Source of the DNA: Mobula hypostoma | Lineage: Eukaryota | DNA: 64,000 bases | Assembly (NCBI RefSeq): GCF_963921235.1 | Contig: NC_086097.1 | Coordinates: forward strand, 165,232,001 to 165,296,000 | Direction: 5' to 3' | Shown: piece after piece, positions 1,201 through 60,000 of the stretch | How the letters are laid out: every line of letters starts with the position of its first letter | How positions within the stretch are numbered: position 1 is the stretch's first letter | Position numbers and translations under genes: made by a program | The notes under the pieces: generated by a model | The model's database searches: none | What the model saw: the letters and a program-made list of their open reading frames with translations, nothing else | What the model was told of the DNA's origin: nothing

Positions 1201-1946
1201 CATAGTTGCAACAGTGTGTCATGTGAAGTTATTGCTTGACTGATTAAGTGTTTTCCCCTAATCTCTATTGACTTCAGTTTTCCTTGGCCTTGCCATGCTA
1301 AGGCTGCATCACTATTGAGAGTAGTTAATTTCATATCAAGTTCCTCTTTTTTCCATTTTTGAAATTAAATTGGAGCCAATTGACCTTGGTAGGATCTTAA
1401 ATTAAGCTTTGGTCAGCATTTCCATCAACCTGAGTGTACTGATGGGCTGGATTAAATGTGTAAATTCATTGACCCCGTGAAAGATAAACTGGAAAATGCT
1501 TCAGTGGGTAAGGCAAGAGCCAGAGTTAACATTACAGGTCAAAGATCAACTCATCAGAGGTGTAAACAGGAATCACCTTAGTTTTTAAGTTGCAGAAAAA
1601 GTGGGGACCACCCTTTGAGATGGTGTGTTGTTCCAGAGAGAGGCCAAGTACATGTACAAGAGGTGATGTGGCAATGCATAGTACTGAGCATGGATCTTAA
1701 GAATACAGTTGTTTGAGAATGTTTAGATAGCTTGAATATGCCTTTGATCTTAGGTGAATTTGAATTAAGTAATCTCTGGTGGAATCAATTTGAACTGGAG
1801 ATGTTGCCAAGGAAAAGTGTGTAGCTGTGGTAGTGAGTTTTAGTGAACATATTGCAGATAAGAAGGCAACAGAAAGCAGTGAGGGTAAACAAGATAAATG
1901 AGGTCCTGCCGAAGGTTTCAGCCCAAACCATCAACTGTATTCTTTT

Positions 1947-2345
1947 AACAACACACATAAAAGTTGCTGGTGAACGCAGCAGGCCAGGCAGCATCTCTAG
2001 GAAGAGGTACAGTCGATGCTTCAGGCCGAGACCCTTCGTCAGGACTAACTGAAAGAAGAACTAGTAAGAGGTTTGAAAGTGGGAGGGGGAGATCCGACCA
2101 TTTCGGATCTCCCCCTCCCCCTCCCCCTCTTAAATCTCTTACTAGCTCTTCATTTCGGATCTCCCCCTCCCCCTCTTAAATCTCTTACTAGCTCTTCTTT
2201 CAGTTAGTCCTGACGAAGGGTCTCGGCCTGAAGCATCAACTGTACCTCTTCCTAGAGATGCTGCCTGGCCTGCTGCTACGTTCACCAGCAACTTTTATGT
2301 GTGTTGCCTGAAATTCCAGCATCTGCAGATTTCCTCATGTTTGTG
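1947..2345. mobile_element. Penelope-like element terminus with inverted (palindromic) arms, inserted in an older Penelope-like relic
   Basis: Two inverted arms. 13-bp TSD actgtattctttt at 1934-1946 and 2346-2358. A ~46-bp tandem duplication lies at the inversion junction (~2099-2196). The older relic continues at ~1900-1946 and ~2346-2447. Confidence 0.8.
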
Positions 2346-3563
2346 ACTGTATTCTTTTCCGTAGATGCGGCCTGGCCTGCTGAGTTCCTTCAGCATTTTT
2401 GTTTGTGTTGCTTGGATTCCAGCATCCGCTGATTTGTCTCTTGTTTGTAAATGGGGTGCTTAGAAATTTTGTCGAAGTGTGAAGTACCCACTCTGCAGCT
2501 TAAAACAAATTCTCTTTCTCACTTTCCAGAGATCTTCAACTTGAAATGTGAATACTGATTTTCTTCACAGATGCTCCATGACCTGCTGAGTATTGCAAGC
2601 ACTTTTTATTTTTAGTTCAGGCTTCCAGTTTTTGAGGTTTATTTGATTTTCAAAATTGGAACTTTGGAAAATGGTAATGTTGCTGGTGTAGACGTGCAGA
2701 TTAACAATACGGGCAGCATATCCTCATACATAACATCCAGAAAACTGTCTGGGCTCGTGCTATATATAATAATATTAAAACAGATCAAATTTTCTTAAAA
2801 CTGATATTTGCAACAGTGTGCTATCTGGAGGAGTCCAATTATTTATCTTCCATTCAACCCCTAAACACCAGCATTTGTTGCTGTTTCTGCTTGGTGAAGG
2901 AGCAGTTCTATGCAATTGACTTTGTACTGCTATATTGCCTCATGGCTGAGGCAGCTCCTGCAATTATGGTGCAACTCTCAAAGATGCTAGTGAGGTTACT
3001 TTGCGGGATTAGTTAGGTGTGATTTTGCTGTTTCAATTCAATGCCTAGTTTGATCCTGGATGGTCTGTTTGATTTTATTCCTCTTTTACTCTGTGGAAGC
3101 CGTTTGCCATCTATGGCTTATTGGCCTACTTCAGAGAAAAGGTAAAAATTAACCACGATACTGAAGTTATTTATAAACCGGACCTGCAAAGACAACAGGT
3201 TTTCTTCCTCAAAGAATGTTAGGTAACCAAATAAATTTTTACATTTAGCTTTTCTAGTAGCTTTAGGATCACCCTCAATATTAATTTTGTTTAATTGTTT
3301 TAAAATACTGTTTTATTTTTGGTGGAATTGAAGTTGGCAAAAAATGACTTGAAACTAACATGACTGAATGGTTCTTTAAACCCTTCCCACCATTTCCACC
3401 CCCGTGATTAATTGCAACTAAAAATATTTACAACACAGAGGTTTTGCAGATGCTGGAAATCATGAGCAGCATGCAAAAAATGCTGGAGGAACCCATCTAT
3501 GGAGGGCAGTAAATAGTCAATGATTCAGGCAGCAACCCTTCATCAGGACTAATAAAAAATCGG

Positions 3564-4245
3564 CAAAACACATAAAATTTGCTGGTGAACACAGCAGGCC
3601 AGGCAGCATCTCTAGGAAGAGGTACAGTCGACGTTTCGGGCCAAGACCCTTTGTCAGGACTAACTGAAAGAAGAGCTAGTAAGAGATTTGAAAGTTGGAG
3701 GGGGAGGGGGAGATCCAAAATGATAGAAGACAGGAGGGGGAGGGATGGAGCCAAGAGCTGGACAGTTGATTGGCAAAAGGGATATGAGAGGATCATGGGA
3801 CAGGAGGCCTAGCGAGAAAGAAAAGGGGGAAACTTCCGCTAATGCCCCACCTCCCCCTCGTACCCCATCTGTTATTTATTTATATGTACACATACTTTTT
3901 TTCTCCCACTGTACCCCTTGCCATCCGCTGTTCCCCCCCCTTTTCTTTCTCCCTAGGCCTCCTGTCCCATGATCCTCTCATATCCCTTTTGCCAATCAAC
4001 TGTCCAGCTCTTGGCTCCATCCCTCCCCCTCCTGTCTTCTCCTATCATTTTGGATCTCGCCCTCCCCCTCCAACTTTCAAATATCTTACTAACTCTTCTT
4101 TCAGTTAGTCCTGACAAAGGGTCTTGGCCCGAAACGTCGACTGTACCTCTTCCTAGAGATGCTGCCTGGCCTGCTGCGTTCACCAGCAACTTTTGTGTGT
4201 GTGTTGCTTGAATTTCCAGCATCTGCAGATTTCCTCGTGTTTGCG
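3564..4245. mobile_element. Penelope-like element terminus with inverted arms
   Basis: Minus arm 3564-3830, plus arm 3831-4245. TSD ctaataaaa(a/t)atcgg at 3549-3563 and 4246-4260. Confidence 0.85.
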
Positions 4246-17841: not shown

Positions 17842-18053
17842 CAGGAATTCTGCAGATGCTGGAAATTCAAGCAACACACATCAAAGTTGCTGGTGAACGC
17901 AGCAGGCCAAGCAGCATCTGTAGGAAGAGGTGCAGTCGACGTTTCAGACCGAGACCCTTCGTCAGGACTAACGAAGGGTCTCGGCCTGAAACATCGACTG
18001 CACCTCTTCCTACAGATGCTGCTTGGCCTGCTGCGTTCACCAGCAACTTTGAC
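17842..18053. mobile_element. Short palindromic Penelope-like insertion
   Basis: Inverted arms meet at ~17970. 14-bp TSD atggaagcatacaa at 17828-41 and 18054-67. Confidence 0.85.
17934..17969 (-). ncRNA. Minimal type I hammerhead ribozyme motif (core intact, weak stem II)
   Basis: AGUC-CUGACGA-AGGGUCUCGGUCU-GAAA-CG-UC-GACU. Confidence 0.6.
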
Positions 18054-28587: not shown

Positions 28588-29401
28588 CTTTAAACCATCA
28601 GAAGTTGAGGGATGACCTGATGGGTATATAAAATGCTGAGAGGAATGCACAGAAATATTTTCTGGTGTTTTAATGTCAATGATCGTTGCTTTACTGCTGC
28701 TTACATGCGGGAGAGAGGGGAGCTGGGGGGGTGGATTTTGGTGCTCTAACATTTAACTTATTATTTGGGGCCATTCCTCTGTTTTTTGTGGATGTTTGTG
28801 AAGAAAAAGCATTTCAGGATGTATTTTGTATACATTTCTCTGACATTAAATGTACCTTTGACATACAAAAGGACATTGATTTAAGGTGAGAGGGAGAAAA
28901 TTTTTTTTGTGAGCAATTTTTTTTTCACCATGTTAAGTGCCTGGAATGCACTGCCAGAGAGATAAATGAAAGCAGATACAATAGCAACAAGGTATTTAGT
29001 TAGATAGATTAATAGGCAGGGGGTGGAGGGGCATACTATGTGCAGTCAAATGGGATTAGTTCAAAGTGGCATCATGATGGGCCAAAAGACCTTTTCTTCT
29101 ATGGAACAGTTTTTTTCTGATGGGTTTCTGCAAGTCTGTTACACACCACAGCCATAAACTTGAAAATCCTCATCACTTTGTTTTTTTCGTTTTGGACAGT
29201 AAGTTTTTTTCAGGAATGTAGTAAATAATTTCAGAAGCATTCCTGTACATCCAGCATATGTTTTGTCTGTCACATGACTCACTTGGAAGAGTCTTTTTCA
29301 AAAGAAAGAAAAACTTTACAACCAATATTTTGACAGCCACAAAATTGGCTTGACTGCAACTTTGATGTTTTTCATCATTTATGTGGAAGAGTTGATCTTA
29401 T

Positions 29402-30525
29402 AGGAAGAGGTACAGTCGACGTTTCGGGCCGAGACCCTTAGTCAGGACTAACTGAAAGAAGAGCTAGTAAGAGATTTGAGAGGGGGAGGGGGAGATCCGA
29501 AATGATAGGAGAAGACAAGAGGGGAAGGGATGGAGCTAGGAGCTAGAAAGTTGATTTAGCAAAAGGGATATGAGAGGATCATGGGACAGGAGGTCCAGGG
29601 AGAAAGAAAAGGGGGAGGGGGGGAAAACCCAGAGGATGGGCAAGGGGTATAGTGAGAGGGACAGAGGGAGAAAAAGGAGAGAGAGAAAAAGAATGTGTGT
29701 ATATATAAATAACGGATGGGGTACGAGGGGGAGGTGGGGCATTAGCGGAAGTTAGAGAAGTCAATGTTCATGCCATCAGGTTGGAGGCTACCCAGACGGA
29801 ATATAAGGTGTTGTTCCTCCAACCCGAATGCGGCTTCATCTTTACAGTAGAGGAGCCTGTGGATAGACATATCAGAATGGGAATGGGACGTGGAATTAAA
29901 ATGTGTGGCCACTGGGAGATCCTGCTTTCTCTGGCAGACAGAGTGTACACCTATGTCCCATTCCCATTCCATTCTGATATGTCTATCCACGGCCTCCTCT
30001 ACTGTAAAGTTGAAGCCACACTCAGGTTGGAGGAACAACATCTTATATTCCACCTGGATAGCCTCCAACCTGATGGCATGATCAAACTTCCGCTAATGCC
30101 CCACCTCCCCCTCGTACCCCATCCGTTATTTATTTATATATACACACATTCTTTTTCTCTCTCTCCTTTTTCTCCCTCTGCCCCTCTCACTATACCCCTT
30201 GCCCATCCTCTGGGCTTCCCCCCTCCCCCTTTTCTTTCTCCCTAGGCCTCCTGTCCCATGATCCTCTCATATCCCTTTTGCCAATCAACTGTCCAGCTCT
30301 TGGCTTCATCCCTCCCCCTCCTGTCTTCTCCCATCATTTTGGATCTCTCCCCCCCCCCCACTTTCAAATCTCTTACTAGCTTTTCTTTGTTAGTCCTGAC
30401 GAAGGGTCTCGGCCCAAAACGTCGACTGTACCTCTTCCTAGAGATGCTGCCTGGCCTGCTGCATTCACCAGCAACTTTTATGTGTGTTGCTTGAATTTCC
30501 AGCATCTGCAGATTTCCTCGTGTTT
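29402..30525. mobile_element. Penelope-like element with long inverted arms that include the end of the GIY-YIG endonuclease
   Basis: Arms meet at ~29950. Encoded C-terminus HSVCQRKQDLPVATHFNSTSHSHSDMSI...EEQHLIFRLGSLQPDGMNIDFSNFR. TSD gagttgat(c/t)ttat at 29389-401 and 30526-38. Confidence 0.9.
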
Positions 30526-32109: not shown

Positions 32110-34895
32110 AAGATCATAAGTCATAGGAGCAGAATTAGGCCACTTAGCCCATCGAGTCTGCTCCACTATTTAATTGTGACTGATCCTTTTTTTTCCCCTT
32201 CTCAACCCCATTTCCTGGCCTTCTCCCCATAACCTTTGCCGTGTCCAATCAAGAATCTATCGATCTTTGCCTTAAATACACTAAATGACCTGGCCTCCAC
32301 AGCTGCACTTGGCAACAAATTCCACAAATTCACCACCCTCTGGCTAAACAAATTTCTCTGCATTTCTGTTTTGAATGGACACCGAAAAGTTTCAATGAGA
32401 TCCCCCCCCCCATCCTTCTAAATTCCAGCAAGTACAGACCCAGAACCATCAAACGTTCGTCATATGATAACCCTTTCATTCCTGGAAGCATCCTTGTGAA
32501 CCTCCTCTGGCCCCTCTCCAATGCCAGCAAATCTCTTCTAAGATGAGGAGCCCAAAACTGTACACAACACTCAAGGTGAGGGCTCACTTTATAAAGCCTC
32601 AGCATAACATCCTTGCTCTTGTATTCTAGATCACTTGAAATGAATGCTAACATTGCATTTGCCTTCCTCACCACTAGTTCAACCTGCAAGTTAACCTTTA
32701 GGGTATTCTGCACAAGGACTTACAAGTCCCTTTGCATCTCAGATTTTTGGATTTTCTCCCCGTGCAGAAAATAGTCTGCACATTTATTTCTACTACCGAA
32801 GTGCATGACCGTGCATTTTCCAACATTATATTTCATTTGCCATTTTCGTGCCCATTCTGATCTGTCTAAGTCCTGGCAACAAAGCCATCTATTTCATCAT
32901 CTAAATCATCGATATACAGCATAAAAAGAAGTGATCCCAGCACCAACCCCACTAGTCACTGGCAGCCAACCAGACAAGGATCCTTTTATTTCCACTTGCT
33001 GCCTCCTACCAATCAGCCAATGCTCTAACCTTACCAGTCACTTTCCTGTAATACTATGGGCTCTTAACTTGGTAAGCAGCCTCATGTGTGGCACCTTGTG
33101 AAAGGCCTTCTGAAAGTCCAAATATACAACATCCGCTGCATCCCCTTTATCTATCCTACTTGTAATCTCCTCAAAGAATTCCAACAGGTTCATCAGGCAG
33201 GGTTTTCCCTGAAGGAACTAAAGGGAACCATGCTGACTTTGTACTATCTTGTCCTGTGTCACCAAGTACTCCAACACTTCATCTGGAACAGTTGACTCCA
33301 ACATCTTCCCAACCGCTGAGGTCTATAATTTCCTTTCTGCTGCCTTCCTCCTTTCTTAAAGAGTGGAGTGATATTTTTGCACTTTTCCAGTCCTCTGCTA
33401 CCAAGCCAGAGCCTAATAATTTTTGAAAGATCATTTCTAATGTTGCCACAATCTCTAATGCTACTTCTTTCAGAACTCTAAGGTGCAGTTCTTCTGGTCT
33501 GGGTAACTTATGTACTTTCAGATCTTTCAGCGTTTTGAGCACCTTCTCCCTTGTAACAGTAACTGCACCCACTTCTCTTCCTTCACACACTACAACATCT
33601 GACACACTGCTAGTGTCTTCCACAATGAAGACTGATGCAAAATGTTCATTTAGTTCATCTGCCATCTCCTTGTCCCCCATTATTATTTATGCTGCCTCAT
33701 TTTCTAGCGGCCCTTTATCCACTTTTTTATTTTTTTACATACTTGAAAAAGCTTTTACTATCCACTTTGATATTATTTGCTAGCTTGCTTTCATATTTCA
33801 TCTTTTCCCTTCTAATGATTCTTTTAGTTGCTCTGTAGGTTTTTAAAAAGTTCCCAATCCTCTATCTTACCACTAATTTTTGCTTTGTTGTATGTTCTTT
33901 CTTTTGTTTTTACATTGGCTTTGACTGCCCTTGTCAGCCACCGTTGTACTATTTTGCCATTGGAGTATTTTTTTCATTTTTGGAATGCACATGTTCTGCA
34001 CCTTCCTCATTTTTCCCCAGAAATGCACGCCATTGCTGCCCTGCTGACATCCCTGATAGCAGCTCCTCCCAATTTACTTCGGCCAACTCCTCTCTCATAC
34101 TACTGTAATTTTCCTTACTCCACTGAAATACTGCTATGTCAGACTTTACTTTCTCCCTATCAAATTTCAAGTTGAAGTTCATATTGTAATCACTGGTTTT
34201 TAAGGGTTCTTTTACCTTAAGCTCCCTAATCGCCTCCAGTTCGTTACATAACACCCAATCCAGTATAGTTGATCCCTTAGTAGGCTCAATGACAAACTGC
34301 TCTAAAAAGCCATCTCTTAACCATTCAACAAACTCACTCTCTTGAGATCCATTACCAACCTGATTTTCCCAATTTGATCTGATTTGATCTGCATGTTAAA
34401 ATCTCCCAACACTATCATAACATTGCCCTTTTGACGTGCCTTTTCTATTTCCTGTTGGGAAGGCTGTGTATAACTGCCATCAGGGTCCTTTTACCCTTGC
34501 AGTTTCTTAACAAGGATTCAACATCTTCCGAACCTATGTCACATCTTTCTATTGATTTTGATGTCATTCTTTATCAGTAGAGCGACGCCTCCCCTTCTGT
34601 CTACCTTGTTATCCCTCCGATAAGACGTAACCTTGGACATTCAGCTCCCAACTACAACCATCCTTCAGCCATGATTCAGTGATGGCCACAACATCATCCT
34701 GGCAATCTGTAATAGTGCAACAAAATCATCTACCTTATTTCTTACACTGTCCGCATTGTGATACAATACCTTGAGATACTGTATTTGTTACCCTTTTTGA
34801 TTTTGCATTGCTGATGTACTGATACTCACCCTGTTGACTGCGACTTTCTCCCATCATCTGCCCGCCCTTCCTGACAGTCTGACTGCACGCCATCT
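32110..34895 (-). mobile_element. CR1 LINE (most of ORF2 plus 3' tail), inserted in an older + strand CR1 (31840-32109, resuming ~34900)
   Basis: APE and RT motifs with many disruptions, and a CR1 3' stem-loop/tail at ~32110-32160. The host CR1 reads through the junction (gaagggagtta|ctcgagctgg). Confidence 0.9.
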
Positions 34896-35199
34896 TTACC
34901 TACTCGAGCTGGAGATCTGTAATTAGTGGTGTTCCGCAGGGATTTGTACTGGGGCCTTTGCTGTTTGTGCTGTATATAAATGACCTGGGTGAAAATGTTT
35001 CCAAGTGCATCTTTCTGCCAAGAGCCATTGCATTTTTTTTTCTCATTTCAGATCTCCAGGAACACTGATGGGGGGGGGCGGGGTTCAGAGTAAATTAGGA
35101 AATTGAGTTGTATTTGTGTCTTTAAAAAGAAAATGCTTCCAGAGAGGTTAGTGATCCTGGAAACGGCCTTGAAGGAGGCAAGACATGAGATTGCTGGGG

Positions 35200-36560
35200 C
35201 TTTGAAATGTCCTCTCTAGGTGTAGACAAGGGTCCTGAGGACTGGTGAGTGGCTAACGTTATACCTCTATTTAAGAAGGGAACAATGGAACGTCCTAGGA
35301 TGGCGAATCTCTCGTCAGTTGTAGGGAAGATGCTGGAGAAAATTAGGGATAGGATATATGAGCATTTGGAAACCCGTGGCCTAATTGGGGAGAGCCAGCA
35401 TGGCTTTGTGTGACCAGGTCGTGTCTTAACAACTTGATTGATTGTTTTGACAAGGTGACGAGAGGTTGATGAAGGTAGGGCAATGGATGTGTCTGCATGG
35501 ATTTTAGTAAGGCATTTGACAAAGCTCCTCATGGAAGGCTAATCCAGAAGATTAAGATGCTTGGGGTCTGCAGCAAATTGTCTGTTTTCATTCAAAACTG
35601 GCTTGCATATAGAAGACACAGGGTAGTGGTTGAAGGGAGTTATTTGACCTGGAGGTCTGTAATTAGTGGTATGGCGATATAGGCAAATACATTAGAAGCT
35701 TTTAAGAGTTGTTCAGATAGGCATATGAATGTGAGGAAGATTGAGGGATTTGGACATTGTGTAAGTAGGAGAGATTGGTGTTTGGGTGTTTTGATTTGCA
35801 TTTCAACTGGTTCGGCACAACATTGTGGGCTGAAGGGCATGTTGCTGTGCTGTTCTATGTTCTGAATCCCCAAGAGCTTTATAACCTCCATCCCAGAGTT
35901 GCTAAAGAAATAATGGATCTTCAGGGAATGATTGTTATCAACTTAGAGAATTCTTTTTTTCTCTGCATACTGGAAAATGGCAAGTGTGACACCTCAGTTT
36001 AAGAAATGGAATGAGAAAGGAGCCAGAGCACTTTTGACATGTAGACCTATGGCAGTAGTTCGAAAAAAAAAATTGTGGAATTTATATAATGAAATTGATA
36101 TCCAGGTGAGTAAGTATGAGTATATTGAAGGAAAATCTTGTTTGACTGTTCCATTGGGATTCTTTGAGGATGTGTATCTAGTAAAGAAGATGGGTTGGAG
36201 GCAGTGAATATATTCTATTTAAATTTGCAGAAGACCTTTTACTGAAATCTCACATTGGAGGTTGCTGAACAAGATTGGGTCATATGGATTTGGGAGTAAT
36301 CACTGTGGATTAAGAGTTGATTAACTGATATATAACTGGGAATAAACGGATCCATCTAGAGTTCACAAGTAACAAGCACTGCACAGTAACATCTGTGTTC
36401 AGGGCTCCATCGGTTTGTAGTTTATGTCAGCAATTTCTCTCAGAGGACTAAGTCTAACACTTCCAAAATTATTGTTGACATAAAATTTAAGTGGGAATGT
36501 GAACAGTGGCAAAGGTGCAAAGAGGCCTCAGAAGTTATTAACAAGAATGAGTGGGGAGCA
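35200..36560 (+). mobile_element. Cluster of old CR1 fragments
   Basis: DFSKAFDKAPHGRLIQK and related motifs. Confidence 0.7.
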
Positions 36561-36764: not shown

Positions 36765-36998
36765 CCTGGAGGAACTCGGCAGGCTGGGCAGCATCTATGG
36801 AAATGAGTAAACAGTCAACATTTCGGGCTGAGACTCTTTGTCAGGATTAGAAAAATAATATTCTTTTTTCCCCCAGTCCTGCTGAAGGGCCTCAGCCCAA
36901 AACGTCAAGTATACTCTTTCCCGTAGATGTTGCCTGGCCTGCTGAGTTTCTCCAGCATTTTGTGTGTGTTGCTTGGATGTCTAGCATCTGCAAATTTT
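36765..36998. mobile_element. Older palindromic Penelope-like insertion inside a SINE
   Basis: Inverted arms carry degenerate hammerhead motifs at ~36813-36848 (-) and ~36875-36910 (+). Confidence 0.65.
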
Positions 36999-38968
36999 TT
37001 GGCACCCAGAGGAAACTCACATGGTTATGGGGAAAAACCTGCAGACTCCTTACAGACAGTGGCAGGAATCGAACTCCGATCAGTAATGACTGGTACTGGG
37101 AAACAACTGCATTTACTACACTACTGTGCCACTTCTAGATGTGGGGTCATCCACTTTGATCAAACAAAAACAACACTGCTGGGATTTTTAAATGATGAAA
37201 GATTTGAAATCAAGTTCACAGAGATCTGGGAGTGCATAATTTACTGAAAACAGAAGAGTAAGTGCATTAGGCAATTGGGAATGATGATTTTATTGCAAGA
37301 TTTTGTAATAATGTTTTACGATTATATAATGTCTTGCTAAGACTTCACTGTGTACTATTTTGGTCATCTTTCCTAAAAACAGATTTCTGTTGTGAAAAGG
37401 AGTTCATTAGATTGGTTCCTGGACTTGAAAATTTAACATAAAAGCACAGCAAGTAGTCAGCAAGAGGAACAACTAACTTTTCATTTCATAGATCAGAACA
37501 GTTGACAAAAGATCTTTGACCTAAACATTTAACTTTTTCCACAAATGCTACCAAACCCTCTGAGTGTTTCAAGCATCTTCAGTTTTATTCTTGGGCTGGT
37601 GGATCTCCTCACCTGGAAAGGGGTAAAGGTAGAATAGGTCTCAGTTATCTAGAATTTAGAAGAATAAAAGTTGATCTATTGAAAGCTGCAACATTTGTGA
37701 AGGATGACTTGACAAAGTGGATGAAAAGGCTGGAAGGGGAAAAATTTCTGCAATATTAGGATGCTGAGTCTTTGGAATTACCTACTCCAGAGGACTTTAA
37801 GCCTCATTCATTGTTTCCGTTATGAACAAAGATCACTAGGTTTCTGGATATTAAGGCTTCAAGGAATTTGAAGGGGCAATTGGGTGTTTGGAAAAGTTAA
37901 ATCACAGGCTTGTATGGCTGAGCAAGCTTGAAGGGTCATGTAGCTCACAGGCACACATCTCATTAAAATTAAATCAGATATTAAGATCTGCCATTCAGTA
38001 ATGAAAACAATTTTTGCACGGCTATTTCTTATTGATTTTAATAAGCTTTCTATATTTGTTAGTCTAACATGGCACTGGATCAGTGTGCTAATTCTCAAGT
38101 ATAAAAACTGGGGAATTAAGAGGAAGCTTGCATTGCCTGGTTGGACTCCATGGAGAATCTGCCAGTACAGCATTGGTGTCCCGGGGCTAACATTAAACTG
38201 AATGTTAGACCGCATTTCATTGCTTGAGTTTTAGTCAGTCTTCGTAGGCTCCCAGGTTCAGCTGCTAGAGGACTAGTTTGGGCAACATGCCAGATCAACT
38301 TTACTCCAGCTCAATGATTCACTATGCTGTTTCCTTTCATATTTGCCCTATAGTGCGAAAGCCTTCACTTGCTGTATGCATGACTGATGTGTTGCTATAT
38401 TTTATCACTGTACATTGCAGATTCTTCCAGCTTTCTTTATCTGGATGATCTTGCCTTGACCCACAACACCACCTCATGAGTCAAGAAGACGTGACATTAT
38501 CCATACTTTCTAAGGAGTTTGAGATCTGCAAGGTTCCCTGCCCTGATTCAAACAACTTTCTACATGAGCACCATTGACAGTGTCTTGTCTGGCTACATCT
38601 TTGTGTAGTACAGAAGCTGCAAGGCATCGAACTATAAGATCCTTCAGAGGATGGTTAAAAATCACTAAGAGGATCACCAGGGTCTCCTCCCCCCACCCCC
38701 CATATTTATGATATTTACCAAAAGCAGTGTATATGAAGGACCCAAAGCATTGTTGAGATCCCTACCACCCATCCCACAAACTCTTTGACCCACTGTCTTC
38801 AGGAAGGAAGTACAGGAGCATTTGGTCTAGGACTGCCGGACTGGGTCACAGCTTCTTCCCTCAGGCTGTAGACTCATGAATACCCTGTCACCACCAAGGT
38901 CTCGTCATTAGGACAGCGAGCGGTTTACCTACACAGCACACTGCATGAACTTCGCATTATATTTTGTT

Positions 38969-39243
38969 GCGCAGACACGAGGAAATCTGCAGGTGCTGGA
39001 AATTCAAGCAACACACACAAAAAGTGCTGGTGAACGCAGCAGGCCAGGCAGTATCTATAGGAAGAGGTACAGTCGACGTTTCGGGCTGAGACCCTTCGTC
39101 AGGACTAACTGAAAGAAGAGATAGTAAGAGATTTGAAAGTGGGAGGGGGAGGAGATCCTGAAACAGCCGGAAACGTCGACTGTACCTCTTCCTATAGATG
39201 CTGCCTGACCTGCTTCATTCACCAGCATTTTTTGTGTGTGTTG
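38969..39243. mobile_element. Palindromic Penelope-like insertion within a Rex1/Babar-type 3' fragment (~38550-39360)
   Basis: 13-bp TSD attatattttgtt at 38956-68 and 39244-56, with inverted arms. Confidence 0.85.
39071..39106 (-). ncRNA. Minimal type I hammerhead ribozyme motif, intact
   Basis: Stem I AGUC/GACU; core CUGACGA; stem II GGGU/GCCC; GAAA; palindromic ACGU in place of stem III; GUC cleavage triplet. Confidence 0.72.
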
Positions 39244-39528
39244 ATTATATTTTGTTCTGTTTTATGTTCTGTGTGATATTTTGTGGGCGCTCTGCAGTCC
39301 AGAAGAATGTTTCATTTGGTTGCATACATATACAATAGTAAGATGACAATGAACTTGAACTAATACGGTTGTCACACAAATTCAGTGACCTAGGTTCAGT
39401 CCAGACTTTCATGTTGTCTATATGGAATACGTGTGTTCCCATGTGACTGTGTGGACTTCTTTGTGTGATCCAGTTGCTCCCACATCATAGAGATCTGCAA
39501 GTAGGTTAATTCAGTAAATTACCTTAAA

Positions 39529-40476
39529 TGCAGCATCTCCAAGTTTGCGGATGACACGAAGCTGGGTGGCAGTGTTAGCAGTGAGGAGGATGCTAAGAGG
39601 ATGCAGGGTGACTTGGATAGGTTGGGTGAGTGGGCAAACTCATGGCAGATGCAATTTAATGTGGATAAATGTGAAGTTATCCACTTTGGTGGCAAAAATA
39701 GGAAAACAGATTATTATCTGAATGGTGGCCGATTAGGAAAAGGGGAGGTGCAACGAGACCTGGGTGTCATTATACACCAGTCATTGAAAGTGGGCATGCA
39801 GGTACAGCAGGCGGTGAAAAAGGCGAACGGTATGCTGGCATTTATAGCGAGAGGATTCGAGTACAGGAGCAGGGAGGTACTACTGCAGTTGTACAAGGCC
39901 TTGGTGAGACCACACCTGGAGTATTGTGTGCAGTTTTGGTCCCCTAATCTGAGGAAAGACATCTTTGCCATAGAGGGAGTACAAAGAAGGTTCACCAGAT
40001 TGATTCCTGGGATGGCAGGTCTTTCATATGAAGAAAGACTGGATGAACTGGGCTTGTACTCGTTGGAATTTAGAAGATTGAGGGGGGATCTGATTGAAAC
40101 GTATAAGATCCTAAAGGGATTGGACAGGCTAGATGCAGGAAGATTGTTCCCGATGTTGGGGAGGTCTAGAACGAGGGGTCACAGTTTGAGGATAGAGGGG
40201 AAGCCTTTTAGGACCGAGGTTAGGAAAAACTTCTTCACACAGAGAGTGGTGAATCTGTGGAATTCTCTGCCACAGCAAACTGTTGAGGCCAGTTCATTAG
40301 CTATGTTTAAAAGGAAGTTAGATATGGCCCTTGTGGCTACAGGGGTCAGGGGGTATGGAGGGAAGGCTGGGTTCTGAGTTGGATGATCAGCCATGATCAT
40401 AATAAATGGCGGTGCAGGCTCGAAGGGCCGAATGGCCTACTCCTGCACCTATTTTCTATGTTTCTATGTTTCTATG
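39529..40476 (+). mobile_element. Young 5'-truncated CR1 LINE
   Basis: Open frame from KFADD to the stop (39601-40377, 258 aa). Tail tttctatgtttctatgtttctatg. Same subfamily as 11236-13010. Confidence 0.95.
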
Positions 40477-42494: not shown

Positions 42495-45400
42495 CATGGG
42501 TCCAATATCCTAGCACAGATTTAATAGAGTTGTTAGGGAGGGTTTAAACTAATTTGGCAGGAGGATCGGGCTTAGTGATAGGGCTGAGGAAGGGGGAAAC
42601 AAATAAATCAAAGATAGCGTGTAACAGAGATGATAGAAAGGACAGGCAGGAGGTTAGGCATAATCACAGCCAATGGGATGATTTACAGGGCAATGGAGGC
42701 ATGGTGTAGTTAAAACAGAAAGCAACAAATACTGGACTGAAAGTGTTATATTTGAATGCACGCAGCATAAGAAATAAAATGGACAATCTTCAAATTCAGC
42801 TACAGGTTGGCAAGTATGATGTTGTGGCCATCTCTGAAACTTGGCGAAAGGATGACTGCCATTGGGAGCTGAACATCCAAGGATATACAATGTATCAAAA
42901 AGATAGGTTAGTAGGCAGAGGGGGTGGTGAAATAATATTAAATCATTAAAAAGGGATGACATGGGATCGGAAGGTGTAGACTCTCAGGGTTGAGTTAAGA
43001 AATGGCAGGGGTAAAAGGGACCATAATGGCAGTTGTATACAGGCCTCTAAACAGCAGCCAGGATGTGGATTACAAATTACAACAGGAGATCGAAAAGGTG
43101 TGTAAGAAAGGCAATGTCATGACAAGCGTTGGGGATTTTAACATGAAAGTGAATTGGGAAAACCAGGTCAGCACTAGACCTCGAGAGAATTTGTAGATGG
43201 CTTTTTAGAACAGCTTGTTGAGCCCACTAGGAGGATCGGCTGTGCTGAATTGGGTATTGTGCAATGATCCAGAGGTGGCAGTAGAGCTTAAGGTTAAGGA
43301 ACCCTTGAGGAACAATGATCACAAAATTATTGAGTTCACTTTGAATTTTCAGAAGGAGGAACTAAATTCCAATGTGTCATTTCAGTGGAATAAAGGAAAT
43401 TACAATGGCGTGAGAGGGGAACTGACCAAGGTAGACTGGAAAGGGACACTAGCAAGATGGACAGCAGAGCAGCAAAGGCTGGAGTTTCTGCAAAAAATGA
43501 GGGAACTGCAAGACAGATATATTCCAAATAAGAAATTTTTGAATGGAAGAAGGATACTACCGTGGCTGTTAAGTGAAGTCAGAGCCAAAGTAAAAGCAAA
43601 AGAGAAGGCATGCAAGGAAGCCAAAGCTAGTGGGAAGATAGACAATTGGGAAGCTTTTAAAAACTTGCAGAAGGAAACTAAGGTGATCATTAGGAAGGAA
43701 AAGATGAATAATGAAAGGAAGCTGGTGACAAATATCAAAGAAGATACTAAAAGCTTTTTTTAAAGTATATAAAGGGTAAAAGAGAGTTGAGGGTAGATAT
43801 AGGACCAATAGGAAATGATGCTGGAGATATTGTATTGAGAGACGCAGAGAAGGCAGAGGAACTGAATGCGTATTTTGCATCAGTCTTCACAGTGGAAGAC
43901 ACCTGCAGTGTACTGGATATTCAAGAAAGTCAGGGAAGTGAAGTATGTGCAGTGAAAATTACAACTGAGAAGGTGCTCAGAAAGCTCAATGATCTGAGGG
44001 TGGATAAATCTCCTGGACCTGATGGAATGCACACTTGGGTTCCAAGGGAAGTAGCTGGAGAGATTGCGGAGGTATTAACAATGATCTTCCAAGAAATGAT
44101 AGATTCTGGCATTTTACAGGATGACTGGAAAATTGCAAATGTTACTCCACTATTTAAGAATGGTGGCAAGCAGCAGAAAGGAAACTATAGACCTGTTAAC
44201 CTGACATCAGTGTTAGAATCGATTGTTAGGGATGAGATTACAGAGAACCTGGAGGCACAGAACAAAGTAGGCCAAGGCCAGCATGGTTTCCTGAAAGGAA
44301 AATCCTACCTGACTAACCTCCTGCAATTTTTTGAGGAGATTACAAACAGGGTAGACAAAGGAGATGCAGTAGATGTGATGTACTTGGATTTTCAGAAGAC
44401 CTTTGACAAGGTGCCGCACATGAGATTGCTTAGCAAGATAAGAGCCCGTGGAATTACAGAGAAGTTACCAACACGGGTGGAGCATTGGCTGATCAGCAGT
44501 AAACAGAGATTGGGGATATCAGTGGAGTTCCACAAGAGTCGGTGTTGGGGCTGCCGCTTCTTATGATTTATCTCAATGATTTGGAATATGGGATTAATGG
44601 ACTTGTAGCTAAATTTGCCAATGATACAAAGATAGTTGGAGGAGCGGGTAGTGTTGAGGAAACGGGGAGCCTGCAGAGAGACTTAGATAGTTTAGGGGAA
44701 TGGGCAAAGAAGTGACAAATGAAATACAATGTTGGAAAGTGTATGGTCATGCACTTTGAAAGAAATAACTGGGCAAACTACTATTTAGATGGGGAGAGAA
44801 TTCAAAGTGCAGAGATGCAAAGGGACTTGGGAGTCCTTGTGCAAGATACTCTGAAGGTTAACCTCCAGGTTGAGTCGGTGGTGAAGACAAATGCACTGTT
44901 GGCATTCATTTCTAGAGGTATAGAATATAGGAGCAGGGATGTGATGTTGAGGCTCTATAAGGCACTTGTGAGACCACACTTGGAGCATTGTCTGCAGTTT
45001 TGGGCTCCTTATTTTAGAAAGGATATACTGACATTGGAGAGGGTTCAGAGAAGGTTCACAAGAATGATTCCAGGAATGAAGGGGTTACCATATGAAGAAC
45101 GTCTGGCAGCTCTCGGACTGTATTCCCCGGAGTTCAGGAGAATGAGGGGGGGATCTCATAGAAACATTCCAAATGTTAAAAGGCCTGAACGGATTAGATA
45201 CGGCAAAGTTATTTCCCATGGTAGGGGATTCTAGGACAAGAGCGCAGGACTTCAGGATTGAAGGACATCCATTTAGAACAGAGATGCGGAGAAATTGCTT
45301 TAGTCAGAGGGTGGTAAATCTGTGGCGTTTGTTGCCACAAGTGACTGTGGAGGCCAAGTCATTGGGTGTATTTAAGGCAGAGATAGGTTCTTGATTAGCC

Positions 45401-45529
45401 AGGGCATCAAAGGTTATGGGGAGAAGGCAGATTGGTGGGGACACTTGGAAGAATTGGATCAGCCCATGATTGAATGGCAGAGCAGACTCAGTGGGCTGAA
45501 TGGCCTACTTCTGCTCCTATATCTTATGA
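42495..45529 (+). mobile_element. CR1 LINE: ORF1 end, disrupted ORF2 (APE + RT), 3'UTR
   Basis: GEGLN* ORF1 end; LYLNARSIRNK; GDFN; YLDFQKTFDKVPH; KFAND; tail cctatatcttatg. Confidence 0.93.
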
Positions 45530-45770
45530 GCCGCCATGCTTCTGTCCTAGCAGCTGCTTGGTGAATCTGTAGGGATTTGCAGTATTGGGATTGACATATT
45601 TTACGCTTTTAAATCCTGTAATATTTCTAACACAAAATGTTGCTTATGTTGTATTTAGTTACTGTAAATTAATATTTGAAATGGATATAAGGCTTTTAGC
45701 AAAAACAATGTAGTCTCTTCTTGACTATTACTGTCCATTGCAAATTTACAAAGCTGATCTTATTTGAAGT

Positions 45771-45901
45771 CCTGACGAGGGGTCTTGGCCCAAAATGTCA
45801 ACTGTACCTCTTCCAATAGATGCTGCCTGGCCTGCTGCGTTCCACCAGCATTTTGTGTGTGTTGCTTGAATTTCCAGCATCTGCAGATTTCCTCGTGTTT
45901 G
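45771..45901 (+). mobile_element. Solo Penelope-like 3' terminus (no inverted arm), starting at the hammerhead motif
   Basis: 12-bp TSD cttatttgaagt at 45759-70 and 45902-13. Confidence 0.8.
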
Positions 45902-48846: not shown

Positions 48847-49535
48847 TGTAAGGGGTTTCTTCTTTTACGTTACTGCGTAGGCTAGTTAAAATGACTTCTT
48901 TGTTATGTTAACTGCTGAGAAAGTTCTCTCGCTAGCAGCTTGTTTGGGTTATATTATTGATAAGAGAGCAAACGAACCATTGGGATAGATGTTATTCTTG
49001 TGCGTCTGTAAGCTATTGTGATACACGGGTTTTTGGGACAGAAGGTGCGATGGGGAGAGAGAGTGGACGCGGTGCTGTGAGCTGGCTAACGGGGTCGGAC
49101 CCCGAGCAAGAGTCCGAGGTCCAGGGTCTTCGGCGAGGAGAGGAGACGGAGACAGACTCGTGTGGAGCGTCTGGTCAACCACTGTGGTTGTTCCCAGGCG
49201 GCGGGTCGAAATGGTGAGAGGGGACCGAATGGTGAAGTGAGGATCATTACTCGAGCTCCAACTGTTTGTGCATGAAGTGATTGAACTTTGATAAGTTTTT
49301 AAAAGTTTAGCCTTTTATTTTCCTTTTATATTCTATCTACTAATTATATAGTTCCAGTAATATCTATAAATTGTAATCAATTAATCGCATATGGTGTTTT
49401 CTCTGTGATTTGGCAGGGAGGGGTACATCACACAGCATCCACACAAACTTAATTACCCAGTTTGGCAGGGCCGAAGTCTGCTTCCCCTAGACGACAACGA
49501 GTTGAGCGAGCCTAAGGTTTACCAGGGGTACTACA
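48847..49535. mobile_element. Solo LTR (689 bp)
   Basis: TGTA...TACA termini. 4-bp TSD tgta at 48843-46 and 49536-39. No coding remnant. It interrupts a SINE. Confidence 0.7.
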
Positions 49536-52500
49536 TGTAATTGCTGTGCTAAAAACTTGTGGACCATAGATTCCTAGTTCTAAAAGGGAGTATTTTAAAA
49601 GTAATGTTTCAGGATCATTGTTGTATTTTTTCTGTCTACCTGTAATCTCCTTTATGATAGAGCTCAGAATAATATGTCTGTTTTATGGAGTCTGGTATTA
49701 GGCACACAAATGATGTAGCTTATCCAGCTGAGGCAACTGAATGTAATTGGGGCCTCATTGCCGGGGTACTTGTCCTGGAAGAGAATACTGACCTTTCTTT
49801 TCTTCTTGAGCCAGTCAGTTTAAGATTCTGCTGCAGGATTATTATTGGTATTACTCCTGTGCTGTGTAGGATGTCAATGCCTATGAAATGTAAAGGAAGG
49901 CAGAGATCTCTGTTGCCATGGGAACTAAGAGTTTTTTGCCCATTTCCCATGAAGAAAGCAATGCTAGTGCATTGAAGGTAATTTTTTTCTCTCAACATCT
50001 GCCTATACTCAAAGCTTGCTTTTGTTATGATGAGAGAAATCCATTGAACCTTGTGACTCCTTTGGTCAAGGGTTGGAGGCCTGTCTGTGTTGTGGTGGGA
50101 GAGAAGGTAGGAAAGAGGTTTGTTTGCTAGCTGCTATTCTGTTGTGTTATTCTGCTGAGCTTTGTGGGCATGCTATATTAACAGTGCAATGTGTGGTGAC
50201 GCTTGTGGGCTGTCCCAGCATTTCCTTCGGTGCGTTGGATGTTAACACAAAATGACATGTTACACTGTATATTTCAATAAACATATGACAAATAAATCTG
50301 AATCCAACTCAACAGTCCAGTCAGTTCCATTCTCCTCTTTGACCTGCCACTTATTTTTGTCATATGCTAATTATGTCTCCTTTTGATTCTTGTGCTACCT
50401 ATCTACACCTCTTTTTTTCTGTAGACAGCGAACTTGCCTTCTCATCTTTCGGACATGAATTTGGAACACCTGGCAGAAATGCACATAACCATGGAGAGAA
50501 CCTGTAAACTCTACACAAAGGATTTAATATGCTGCAAAATGCATTTTAGTTACTGTGTCAGTAACATGTGCGAATATCATGTCATAATAATAACTCACAA
50601 AATGAAGGATTGACATCCTCGCTATAGTTCTAAAGATTTGTGTCCCACGCTAGAACAGACTTCTGGTTAAGCATGTGGTATTTTTACATCTGATTTTCAA
50701 AATCCAGTCATCCTCTTTGGACATTCAGTGGCTTATTACTATTGCCAAATCCTATTCAGTCAACTTCCTGGGCGTTGCCACTTCCTGGTATCTTAACTGG
50801 ATCAACCACAGTCATGCCATGACTGCAAGAGTATAGATTGTTCAATAACAAATGATAACAATCCTGATCACAAAAGCTATTTGTCTTCTGTGGTTTCTTC
50901 CCACCAGAAAGCACAAGTCAGGAACGATGAAATATCTCCATTTGTTAGAAACTAAGGCATTTCTGATGACTTTTAACAGGTTCAGTACTATATTTTTAAA
51001 AAAAAGGTTGATTGCAAATCCCACCCCTAACATCCTCTTTCTTGAATATTCACATTTAACCCTGTCAGATGTATCCTCTAAGATGTACTAGAAGCCTGAA
51101 TATGCTTTTCCAACCACCTAGGATCACAGGTTCAGTATTTCAAGATAATAATATACAAATTCTCTTCCAAGCTGCATACCATTATATCTTATAGGAAATG
51201 GGTTTCTGTGCCTGCATTTTCCCTGAGTTAGAATCCTGAACTTTTATTATTGTGATATCTCATGTTGGAAAGTAAATTTGGTAATTTTTTTCTTATTGTC
51301 ACATCTACTGAGATGCTGTGAAAAAGCTTTTGTTTGTGTGTCATTCAGACAGATAATTCCAGAGATGAGTAAATCAAGATAATAAAAGAGAAGTGTTACA
51401 ATTACAGAGAAAGTACAGTACAGGTAGACAAAGTGGAAGGGCAATGACTATGTAAATTGGAAGATCAAGAGCTTGTCTTTTGGTGTGTGAGAGATCTGTT
51501 CAAGAGATTTTATAACAGCAGAATGGAAGCTGGAAGCTGTCCTTGAGACTGATGGTACATGTAGGTACATAGCTATTTTTCATCACTACAGTCAGAGTAC
51601 GATTTCTCTCTGACTCCAGGAGATGAAGCAGACATTTTACTATGCACCTTCTCAAGAGCAGTTCGCATTAGAAAATAAATGGAGTATTTCCCATGAGTTG
51701 AAAAGATGAAAAAAAAACAGTTGGTGTCATTTTCAGACAGTTTAATGGTAGAGGAAATTGACAGATCAGGTCTGATCTGAACATCCATTCTTTTCATTTG
51801 TGTATAAGAGCTATTAATATTATCTGATGGTGGCAACCTGCAATGAAATAGTTTGACTGAAAACCACTTCATTCTGGTGCACAATTTTTCAAAAGTGCAT
51901 CTGTTAAGTACATAGTTTTTATTGTGTAGGCTGGATCCTTTTCTCTGTTATGGGGATGGTGTAGAGACAACTTGAAAATACTAAAAGTTACTGAGAGGCT
52001 AAGTGAGGCAATATTACGTATGACGTGCTTCCAACTAACTAAATTCCAAGTTGAAGAAGTACATTTAATCCTTTATTACAAATCAACAATAAAATCATTG
52101 GACTATTCCATAATTCATGTAAAAGTAATAGGATCAAATTGAAACAAGGACGAGCGGTCAGTGAAAATATCTGCTCCCTACTCACCCCCTTTCTGTTCTA
52201 CCAAACAGGTGACTATATTCATTTATTTTAACCGCTAATTCCCACCCAAACCCAATGACGAATTACCTTAACCCAGAATGAAGGTACACAACATAAATTC
52301 AATACAGACAGACAATAAATGGGTACATGGCTACTGCATCCAATTATAATACTATAATAATTACATTTATTTATTACTTATTACTGAATAGGAAACATGA
52401 AATCCTTAAGGATAAACATATTGTCAGCACATTTTAACATTATGCAAATGTCATCTTTCTTCTTTAAACCAAGTCCTGTAACAGTCATCTGGGCCAGAGG

Positions 52501-52977
52501 TTATTAGCACTTAGCCCAGTACAGAGTAACTTTACTACCATTGTCTTTCAATTCAGTATGTCAAGTCAGTGTCACGAAGTCAAACAACCAAAGTAATTGA
52601 AGCTTCTAGAGCTGTAGCTTCTCAAATGTCTACCTCCTGTAGAAGACAGATCTTGGTTTTAGGCCTGTCCAGACAGCTGATCTTGGTCATGATGCACACC
52701 TGTCGCATAAATCCTCTTCTGGAAAGGCTGGATGACCCTGACCGTGATCCCATAAGTTTCAAAGCACTGTGTCATCAACTGTAAGTGCAAACTTTCCTGG
52801 GAGGAAATTGTGCTTTGTACACGACCTTTTCTGGCATTCCTGTAACTGTGGTAAATACTCCTTGACCCACTGTTTCCAAAACAAGTTTTACATGTATTGG
52901 ACCTGCTTCCATCTACAATGAGCTTAAAGTGATGTTCTCTGAAAAGTTGCTCCACAGTCAAGCACACGTGGAATTTC

Positions 52978-55900: not shown

Positions 55901-57073
55901 AATATTCTGTCTATTCACCTGCCTGTCCTTCTTGCCATTTTTGCTGCACAGTATCTTTGACTTATTTCTATTTTCCTCTTCCTTGACCCTAACACCCTGG
56001 TTTCCTTCCCCCTGCCAACTTAGTTTAAACCCTCCCTAACAGCTATATTAAACAATCCCACCAGGATATTAGTACCCTTTGAGTTCAGGAGTAACCCATC
56101 GTTTTTGTATAACTCGTACCCTCCCCCAAAATAGATCCCAATGATCCAAGAATTTGAAGCCCTACCCCCTGCACCAGTTACTTAGCCACACATTCATCTG
56201 CTTAATTCTGCTATTCATACCTTCATTAACGCGTAGCTCAGGCAGCAATCCTGAGATTATTACTCTGGAGGTCCAGCTTTTCAATTTTCTTCCTAGCTCC
56301 CAGTAATCTTCCTTCGGGACCTCCTCTCTTTTTCTGTCTATGTCATTGGTACTAACATGTACCAAGACTTCTGGCTGCTCGCCCTCTCTCCTCCGAAAAC
56401 TCTGGATCCTATCTGAGATATCCCGTACCCTGGCACCAGGGAGGCAACACACCATCCGGGTATCCTTGTCCAGCTCGCAGAATCTCTTGTTTGTTCCCCT
56501 CACTATGGAATCCCCTATAACTACTGTATTTCTCCTTGCTCTCTTGATCACGGCACTGGGCAGAGTGCCAGAGTCCCGTTCACTGTGGTCTTCCTCTGTC
56601 AGGTCAACCTCTCCAACAGTATCTAAAACGATATATCTGTTTCTGAGGGAAAATGTCACAGAGGTGCTGTGCACTCTCTCTCTATAGGTATTATCAATCA
56701 CCTCCTCACTTTCCCTAACCAGCTGAAGGTCATCAAGTTGCAGCTCCAGATCCCTAACACGGTCCTTAAGGAGCCTCATCTCAATGCACCTGATGCAGAT
56801 GTAATCCTTGTGGAGGCTGGGAGTCTCCCAAGGTCCCCACATCTGACACTCCAAGCACAACACTAATCCTAGATGCATACCTCTAATGCTACTGTTATTA
56901 CTAAATAAATAAACCTGTAACTTATCCCTTTACTATGAGACTCAACAGTCGCAGGAAGCCTCTTCCCGTTTCTGCCTAAGCCCGTTGAGCCAAAGCCCTA
57001 TCACTCTGCAGCCTCTCACTCCACTGCCCGCAGGATACGGTGGTGTTCTTTTTAAGCCTTCCGTGCTCTGAAA
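52978..57073 (-). mobile_element. Full-length CR1 LINE (5'UTR, ORF1, ORF2, 3'UTR) nested in the BEL/Pao element
   Basis: ORF1 56162-56878 has a zinc finger, leucine zipper and SGNH esterase motifs (VVIGDSIVRG, CLPGARVRD, VHVSTND). ORF2 fragments at 55108-55836, 54275-54790, 53048-54076. Possible 6-bp TSD aatttc at 52972-77 and 57074-79. Confidence 0.93.
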
Positions 57074-59477: not shown

Positions 59478-60000
59478 TTAGATTAGATTATTAGTTTATG
59501 AGGACACGTAGTCCTCTTTTATTGTTATTTAGTAATGCATGCATTAAGAAATGATACAATATTCCTCCGGTGTGATATCACAAAACACAGGCAGACCAAG
59601 GCTGAAAAAACTAACAAAACCATATAATTATAACATATAGTTACAACAGTGCAACAATACCATAACTTGATGAAGAACAGGCCATGGCACAGTAAAAAAG
59701 TTCAAAGTCTCTTGAATGTCCCACATCTCATGCAGACGGGAGAAGGAAGAAAACTCTCCCTGCCATGCCCAACCACAGTCCGACTCTGAGTCATCCGAAA
59801 ACTTCGAATCTCCGATCAGCCGTCCGACACCGAGTACCGAGCACCATCCCTATCCGAACGATTCAACCTCAGTCTCGGTCGCCAGCAGCAGGCAGAGCCG
59901 GGGATTTTGGGGCCTTCCTTCCTGAAGATTCTCGATTGCCCAGTAACAACGGCAGCGAACTGGTGTTTCAGAAATTTCTCCAGATGTTCCTCTGTGCTTT
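59478..60000 (-). mobile_element. LINE-type 3' fragment with (TAATC)n-like tail inserted in BEL gag
   Basis: ttagattagatta tail, and a GC-richer body that differs from the flanking gag sequence. Confidence 0.5.

What the first reader, a model, noticed from the sequence alone, without database searches (positions are those of the whole stretch)
39071..39106. Minimal hammerhead ribozyme motifs in the Penelope-like termini (about 15 copies or relics)
Seen: consensus AGUC-CUGACGA-A-GGG(UCUCGG)CCC-GAAA-CG-UC-GACU, which has the hammerhead core, a GUC triplet and the palindrome ACGU instead of stem III. Minus-strand copies: 2011-2046, 3626-3661, 17934-17969, 29414-29449, 39071-39106. Plus-strand copies: 2206-2241, 4107-4142, 30392-30427, 45768-45803, plus truncated arms near 17970 and 39170. 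Older relics lie near 1905, 3515, 36813 and 36875. Established: Penelope-like elements carry minimal type I hammerheads in their pseudo-LTRs that are thought to cleave as dimers via this palindrome. Inference: at this density the genome would hold a very large reservoir of these ribozymes, many inside introns.
Basis: partly seen in the sequence, partly recalled or inferred. Interest (0 to 1): 0.72.

Follow-up and report, generated by a model that had tools for sequence, protein, structure and literature searches.

The report
Penelope retrotransposon hammerheads, mostly dead copies
These 36-base motifs are the already-described minimal hammerhead-ribozyme motif at the ends of a very abundant Penelope-like jumping gene; most copies here have mutated cores and are likely inert, and short copies genome-wide begin at the motif's front edge rather than at its cut site, which likely marks where the element's uncut RNA starts.

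Summary
Observation confirmed: all nine listed 36-mers sit at the stated places, 15 copies or relics in all. They are pseudo-LTR ends of an endonuclease-positive Penelope-like element; a complete copy elsewhere in the genome has RT + GIY-YIG with a hammerhead in each direct repeat. This matches the minimal PLE hammerheads of Cervera and De la Peña 2014, so it is a new member of a known kind. The reservoir is numerically real (66,422 intact motifs by exact pattern; roughly 380,000 motif-bearing copies by extrapolation) but mostly decaying: 2 of 9 listed copies keep the core, old copies show no clear excess core conservation, and the window's pairs are inverted, so they would form hairpins, not dimers. 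The more informative result: copy 5' ends spike at the first three bases of helix I (7-15 times the cut site and one control position), not at the cut site; a whole older subfamily carries A6C; both arms of two insertions share core mutations. Uncut RNA is therefore likely the template. This scan already noted the 5'-end pile-up in three other genomes. Cleavage and RNA starts could not be tested.

The parts
39071..39106 (-). Minimal type I hammerhead motif, core, stems and palindrome intact; predicted cut between 39075 and 39074
38969..39243 (.). Head-to-head inverted PLE end insertion (minus arm 38969-39158, plus arm from 39164), 13-bp TSD at 38956-38968 and 39244-39256; folds as one long hairpin
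39164..39181 (+). Truncated arm holding only the 3' half of the motif
2011..2046 (-). Motif with A15.1G; arm of inverted insertion 1947-2345 (13-bp TSD) that split an older A6C relic
2206..2241 (+). Motif with the same A15.1G as its partner arm
1903..1945 (+). Old A6C-type relic starting at the second base of helix I; its tail continues at 2346
3515..3550 (-). Old relic of the motif (A15.1U)
3626..3661 (-). Motif with G8A; arm of inverted insertion 3558-4245
4107..4142 (+). Motif with the same G8A and loop change as its partner arm
17934..17969 (-). Motif, core intact, one G-U pair in stem II; arm of inverted insertion 17842-18053 (14-bp TSD)
17971..17999 (+). Truncated arm starting inside CUGANGA
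29397..30525 (.). Inverted PLE insertion carrying the C-terminus of the GIY-YIG endonuclease on both arms, then 3' UTR and motif; 8-bp TSD
29414..29449 (-). Motif with G8U
30392..30427 (+). Motif with G12A
36813..36848 (-). Old relic, G8A
36875..36910 (+). Old relic of the A6C subfamily, also G12A
45768..45901 (+). Short solo copy starting at the front of helix I (motif 45768-45803, G12A), 12-bp TSD overlapping its first three bases

Best explanation
The motifs are the minimal hammerhead of the pseudo-LTR of an endonuclease-positive Penelope-like retrotransposon, left behind as 5'-truncated and inverted insertions that likely decay neutrally and were likely copied from uncut RNA. Shown: the complete element is pLTR-ORF-pLTR with the motif 3,513 nt apart in both repeats; copies end 55-75 or 100-112 nt past the cut site; their 5' ends spike at the first three bases of helix I and not at the cut site. 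Inferred: transcription starts at the A that opens helix I (a YYANWYY initiator-like match in young and old subfamilies; motif recalled); the RT primes internally in the tail, as shown in vitro for Anolis PAc, and either runs off that RNA start (short copies) or, from the downstream tail, copies the whole unit. In master elements the motif would cleave weakly, as a dimer or with help from the element's protein, as a side process that insertion does not need. Scattered genomic copies are mostly inert.
For: Complete element L032: 97.8% direct repeats, motif in each, 1,043-aa stop-to-stop frame, 12-bp TSD; Pfam RVT_1 E 6e-5 and GIY-YIG E 0.002, both under the curated cut-offs; relatives with the same domains, best named hit Chiloscyllium 72%. 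L032 reads through both cut sites in one insertion. 5' ends of 94 young copies: 23 in -24..-36 (2.5%/nt) against 20 in -40..-199 (0.27%/nt), p 1e-11. Genome-wide junction counts after dividing by capture chance: -32 6,546; -31 7,766; -30 3,637; -34 820; -42 759; -6 729; cut site 503. Old copies lacking the upstream tract also pile up at -30..-32 (22 of 61). No shared upstream exon in 70 junction loci. Older subfamily with A6C: 12 of 65 old against 0 of 23 young copies, own flank consensus, 2,840 pattern matches, 3 of 10 copies joined to an endonuclease C-terminus. Both arms share core changes at 2011/2206 and 3626/4107. PMC11167929: ribozyme mutants still insert in vitro.
Against: No RNA 5' end or cleavage was observed; only contigs were available. 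The mode is at -31, one base short of the predicted initiator A, and 6 of 7 clean TSD-abutting junctions have no extra cap-type G. -36 is also raised (2,000), apparently by microhomology. 37 of 70 junction loci are inversions where microhomology blurs the end by 1-3 nt. The cut-site pattern misses junctions that keep matching bases upstream, such as the stem I microhomology join seen in L097. Shared arm mutations could come from gene conversion. Pfam scores are below cut-off.
Confidence: 0.7

Rival explanations
1. Cut-and-circularise model (Cervera and De la Peña): the two pLTR hammerheads cleave as a dimer, the 3.5-kb unit is ligated into a circle, and RT copies more than one unit, so insertions look uncut.
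For: L032 is 1.2 units long inside one TSD; motif conserved across subfamily consensuses; ACGU palindrome kept; dimer activity reported for related motifs.
Against: A circle has no 5' end, so it does not explain the spike at -30..-32; an A6C subfamily amplified although A6C nearly abolished Mg-dependent cleavage in another hammerhead; the double-hammerhead fold scores -7 to -12 kcal/mol against -27 to -32 for alternative dimers, tertiary contacts not counted.
Confidence: 0.2
2. The front-edge pile-up is a structural or microhomology artefact: the new cDNA folds back on itself once the rod-shaped motif is copied, or AGUC/GACU microhomology favours inversion joins, with no RNA start there.
For: The 36-mer's predicted fold is a rod that closes exactly at -32; 37 of 70 junction loci are inversions; the pile-up has a shoulder from -24 to -36.
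Against: Non-inverted copies with a clean TSD abut G(-31) with no microhomology (6 of 7); counts drop 8-fold between -32 and -34; several fillers re-copy GACGAAGG, as expected when RT runs out of template and realigns.
Confidence: 0.25
3. The AG opening helix I (or the CAG two bases upstream in the young family) is a splice acceptor, as in D. virilis Penelope, and the boundary reflects splicing.
For: Branch-point-like CUYAC/CUAAC, pyrimidine tract and YAG precede the motif in all subfamily consensuses (motif recalled); D. virilis intron ends at helix I.
Against: No common or exon-like sequence upstream of 82 junctions at -31, -32 and -34; no spike at -34; no GT..AG joint among the 30 joints shown (198 not shown).
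Confidence: 0.1
4. One reading: the genome carries tens of thousands of working ribozymes that cut host transcripts, including introns.
For: 66,422 intact motifs; contigs of probable RNA runs cover the motif.
Against: 9 of 88 sampled copies fully intact; G12 changed in 42% of old copies; non-CpG core divergence median 0.115 against 0.124 in the tail; inverted neighbours dominate and bury the motif; monomers of this class were inactive in vitro and PAc needed its protein.
Confidence: 0.08

Closest known systems
Minimal hammerheads (min-HHR) of metazoan Penelope-like elements (Cervera and De la Peña 2014, PMC4209133; read parts 1-2 of 4 and searched 2 of 3 supplements)
   Same: Type I topology, 4-bp helix I, unpaired A between positions 9 and 10.1, palindromic 15-16 positions without helix III, place in both pLTRs, many solo and opposite-strand copies.
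   Different: Helix II is only 3-4 bp (7-8 in Schistosoma); young families have G10.1-U11.1; count far above the 4,000-9,000 reported for coelacanth and Xenopus (different descriptor); no shark or skate entry in the supplements searched; A6C subfamily not mentioned in the parts read.
Neptune/Nematis-type EN+ PLEs (Craig et al. 2021, PMC8557442; passages)
   Same: RT then GIY-YIG, CX4CxxC linker, partial tandem, inverted 5'-truncated arm, optional 30-40 nt tail.
   Different: Neptune versus Nematis not resolved by a tree here; TSDs of 8-17 bp in non-microsatellite DNA.
PAc, Poseidon of Anolis carolinensis (PMC11167929; section 3 part 2 and passages)
   Same: Two internal RT start zones downstream of the hammerhead; uncut RNA as template; no ends at the cut site.
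   Different: PAc's ORF starts inside the ribozyme; here the likely ATG is about 140 nt past the cut site; the 5'-end pile-up is not described in the text read.
D. virilis Penelope internal promoter (PMC2377424; passages)
   Same: Promoter inside the pLTR with initiator and downstream element.
   Different: There the start lies 46 nt upstream of an intron that ends at helix I; here the inferred start is at helix I itself.
Non-LTR retrozymes (bioRxiv 10.64898/2026.07.22.740005; part 1 and passages)
   Same: Type I hammerhead, PLE-derived, found in one chondrichthyan.
   Different: Retrozymes are head-to-tail tandem arrays; the window's copies are dispersed and inverted.

Membership tests
PLE minimal hammerhead | Core CUGANGA...GAAA with U16.1 and H17 | tested here: met
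   Met in L032, 39071, 17934 and 66,422 genome matches; not met in 7 of 9 listed copies
PLE minimal hammerhead | Helix I and II with unpaired base after A9 | tested here: met
PLE minimal hammerhead | Palindromic 15-16 positions in place of helix III | tested here: met
   ACGU in subfamily consensuses apart from CpG decay
PLE minimal hammerhead | G10.1-C11.1 pair | tested here: inconclusive
   G-C in some subfamilies, G-U in the largest young cluster
PLE minimal hammerhead | Located in both pLTRs of a PLE | tested here: met
   L032 3593-3628 and 7106-7141
PLE minimal hammerhead | Compensatory changes in stems among relatives | tested here: inconclusive
   Stems nearly invariant within the genome; no motif found in the 2 distant loci fetched
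PLE minimal hammerhead | Self-cleavage as dimer or with protein | not testable with these tools
   needs an assay; only contigs available
EN+ Penelope-like element | Single ORF with RT and C-terminal GIY-YIG | tested here: met
   (E 6e-5 and 0.002, below curated cut-offs)
EN+ Penelope-like element | Partial tandem pLTRs, inverted truncated arms, optional tail | tested here: met
Neptune/Nematis clades | CX2-5CxxC linker between RT and EN | tested here: met
   CKRNKCYTC in L031/L032; definition
Neptune clade specifically | RT phylogeny with named references | not tested
   no labelled reference set fetched
Non-LTR retrozyme | Head-to-tail tandem units each with a hammerhead | tested here: not met
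   window copies are inverted or solo

The most novel reading that the evidence does not exclude
The element's RNA begins at the first base of the hammerhead, so the ribozyme is a cap-proximal switch: protein-assisted cleavage removes a 32-nt capped leader and shuts off translation once RT has bound, while only uncut RNA is copied. Running off this start makes hundreds of thousands of 95-145 bp hammerhead-headed mini-copies that may carry the internal promoter and act as SINE-like parasites. A subfamily with A6C shows that Mg-dependent cleavage was dispensable for a large past expansion in a vertebrate.
Probability: 0.25. Interest if true: 0.65.

Novelty: new member of a known kind. Interest (0 to 1): 0.33.

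Why it matters
The motif class is published, so the finding as written is ordinary. What adds value is population-scale evidence on an open question, namely what PLE hammerheads do: tens of thousands of insertion junctions show no trace of cleavage, mark a sharp boundary at the front of helix I, and include a subfamily with a core variant. With a near-intact element in the genome, the RNA start, the cleavage and its need for protein are each directly testable. The copy number (about 66,000 intact) is far above published vertebrate counts, although descriptors differ.

Tried and rejected
Rfam gathering scan of the window: no match. Pfam on the two short endonuclease fragments: none. Fold z-scores of the 36-mers are not significant (-1.5 to +1.3). 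Sequencing runs: no RNA holder on record, 22 contig-only runs; laying 8 of them gave no molecule ends and no GT..AG joint among those shown, uninformative on expression or cleavage. Fossil cleavage signature (copies starting at the cut site): 44 against 102 at control -6, rejected. Spike at the young-family CAG acceptor (-34): absent. Cap-derived G: G at -32 in 51 of 100 listed junctions by hand count against 29 expected, but largely explained by inverted arms and re-copied GAAGG, so not counted as support. A downstream-promoter-element match was off register (motif recalled). Distant relatives for covariation: 2 loci of 292 candidates, no convincing motif. Host gene of the window: only 49201-63998 was scanned by Pfam and gave retroelement domains only; left open. 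Lünse et al. 2016 not held; seen only as a reference title. Literature searches showed no paper on the 5'-end pile-up or on A6C in PLEs; most subscription papers, figures, one supplement of PMC4209133 and bioRxiv supplements were not visible.

Full report
Observation. All nine listed 36-mers lie at the stated coordinates. A profile built from window and genome copies finds 17 hits in the window, 15 of them bearing all or part of the motif, and none in a reversed 800-kb control. The consensus occurs exactly 4,891 times in the 3.48-Gb genome, control 0. The hammerhead reading is correct, but only 39071 and 17934 keep all 11 core positions; the other seven of nine have one core change each. Rfam finds nothing at its gathering scores.

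What it belongs to. The insertion at 29397-30525 carries the C-terminus of a GIY-YIG endonuclease on both arms upstream of the motif. Searching with 56 aa of it gave 149,367 first-look candidates, 150 scored, two in frames over 1,000 aa. Locus L032 is a complete element: 720-nt direct repeats 97.8% alike, a motif in each (3,513 nt apart), a 1,043-aa stop-to-stop frame, and a 12-bp target duplication. Pfam gives RVT_1 (E 6e-5) and GIY-YIG (E 0.002), both below curated cut-offs; 1,249 relatives were found among 7,992 scored, with a bamboo shark protein as best hit at 72%, so the host is likely a cartilaginous fish. The CX4CxxC linker places it with Neptune/Nematis (definition in PMC8557442); no tree was built. 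The window's copies are 5'-truncated ends, six of seven insertions head-to-head inverted, with 8-14 bp duplications.

Size and state of the reservoir. Eighty evenly spaced 10-kb stretches from 18 large contigs hold 150 hits, extrapolating to about 650,000 (bootstrap 526,000-782,000); 88 span the motif, about 380,000. A strict pattern (core, 3-bp stem I, stem II, palindrome) matches 66,422 times, control 0. Of the 88, 27 keep the core and 9 keep everything; among 65 old copies G12, which lies in a CpG, is changed in 42%, and non-CpG core divergence (mean 0.109, median 0.115) is close to the tail's (mean 0.160, median 0.124); the profile search favours core matches and mixed subfamilies inflate the tail, so this is no sign of selection on copies. 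The tail is conserved too, so promoter or protein-binding roles could share the constraint.

Dimers. Neighbouring copies within 1.5 kb are head-to-head in 35 of 63 pairs, same-strand in 19. The 39-kb insertion folds into one hairpin of -157 kcal/mol that pairs the cut site. The monomer's predicted fold is a rod pairing GACG of the core with CGUC at the cut site, and a double hammerhead scores far worse than other dimers in a model that ignores tertiary contacts. Published monomers of this class were inactive and dimers weak (PMC4209133); Anolis PAc cleaved only with its protein, and core mutants still inserted (PMC11167929).

Where copies begin and end. For 94 young copies chosen only by their tail (90 loci from the first 5 Mb of contig 1), 3' ends fall in two zones, 55-79 and 100-114 nt past the cut site, like PAc's two internal RT starts. 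5' ends cluster at -24..-36 (23 of 94; 2.5%/nt against 0.27%/nt at -40..-199; p 1e-11). Genome-wide patterns demanding four mismatches upstream of a given base give, after dividing by capture chance: -42 759 (many are 2-nt deletions), -36 2,000 (recurrent microhomology), -34 820, -32 6,546, -31 7,766, -30 3,637, -6 729, cut site 503. Eight positions were measured, not the whole profile. Among 70 loci at -31 and -32, 37 are inversions, 19 have a clear duplication, 14 do not; 7 abut G(-31) directly, 6 of them without microhomology or extra G; no shared exon is seen; several fillers repeat GACGAAGG, consistent with RT running out of template and realigning. Old copies show the same edge: 22 of 61 without the upstream tract end at -30..-32; window copies 1903 and 45768 are examples. 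TTAGTCC and CCAGTCC match the YYANWYY initiator with A at -32 (motif recalled). I infer an RNA start there; fold-back of the cDNA and splicing remain rivals.

Cleavage looks dispensable for copying. L032 passes through both cut sites in one insertion. An older subfamily carries A6C (12 of 65 old, 0 of 23 young; its own flank; 2,840 pattern matches; 3 of 10 held copies join an endonuclease C-terminus). A6C cut the Mg-dependent rate of another hammerhead by orders of magnitude while sparing Mn-dependent cleavage (PMC7151607, passages). Both arms of two window insertions share core changes, so their templates were likely already mutant, unless the arms converted each other.

Not shown. No raw RNA reads were available; contigs give neither ends nor strand.

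Novelty. The motif and its place are published. My searches found no paper on the front-edge pile-up or on A6C in PLEs, within the library's limits. This scan recorded the pile-up in three other genomes (seen after my own counts). Verdict: new member of a known kind, interest 0.33.

Noticed in passing
window 1903-2447: A young inverted PLE insertion landed inside an older A6C-type PLE end, duplicating 13 bp just past the cut site.
   Followed up: yes
L032:3560-3592 and all subfamily consensuses: Branch-point-like motif, pyrimidine tract and YAG directly upstream of the hammerhead; sense intronic copies could act as cryptic splice acceptors.
   Followed up: partly
L228, L233, L251, L253: Fillers at the 5' junction re-copy 5-9 nt of the motif, suggesting realignment of the cDNA end at the template boundary, reminiscent of telomerase.
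   Followed up: partly
G000:C2:12242896-12243220: Three same-strand motif copies 145 nt apart, a small head-to-tail array that could be retrozyme-like (listing).
   Followed up: no
cluster 7 (e.g. L105:8600-8708): A further young subfamily (4 copies, 6.7% divergence) with loop UUCCRG and different flanks.
   Followed up: no
window 11239-13008, 32114-35640, 39505-40467, 42520-45529, 52976-56929: Several CR1-type LINE copies; 11239-12188 and 39524-40467 are 94.7% alike; 56162-56929 has a GDSL-like ORF1.
   Followed up: no
window about 52650-60550, minus strand: Fragments with DUF5641 and weak DUF1759 matches, the kind seen in LTR retroelements (recalled); broken.
   Followed up: no
window 16407-16883, minus strand: Tc1/mariner-like transposase fragment by eye.
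   Followed up: no
L036:1-2799: 933-aa open L1-type ORF2 next to a PLE copy.
   Followed up: no
L031:3137-6244: Second near-full PLE frame (1,036 aa) without an upstream pLTR hammerhead; one endonuclease histidine changed.
   Followed up: no
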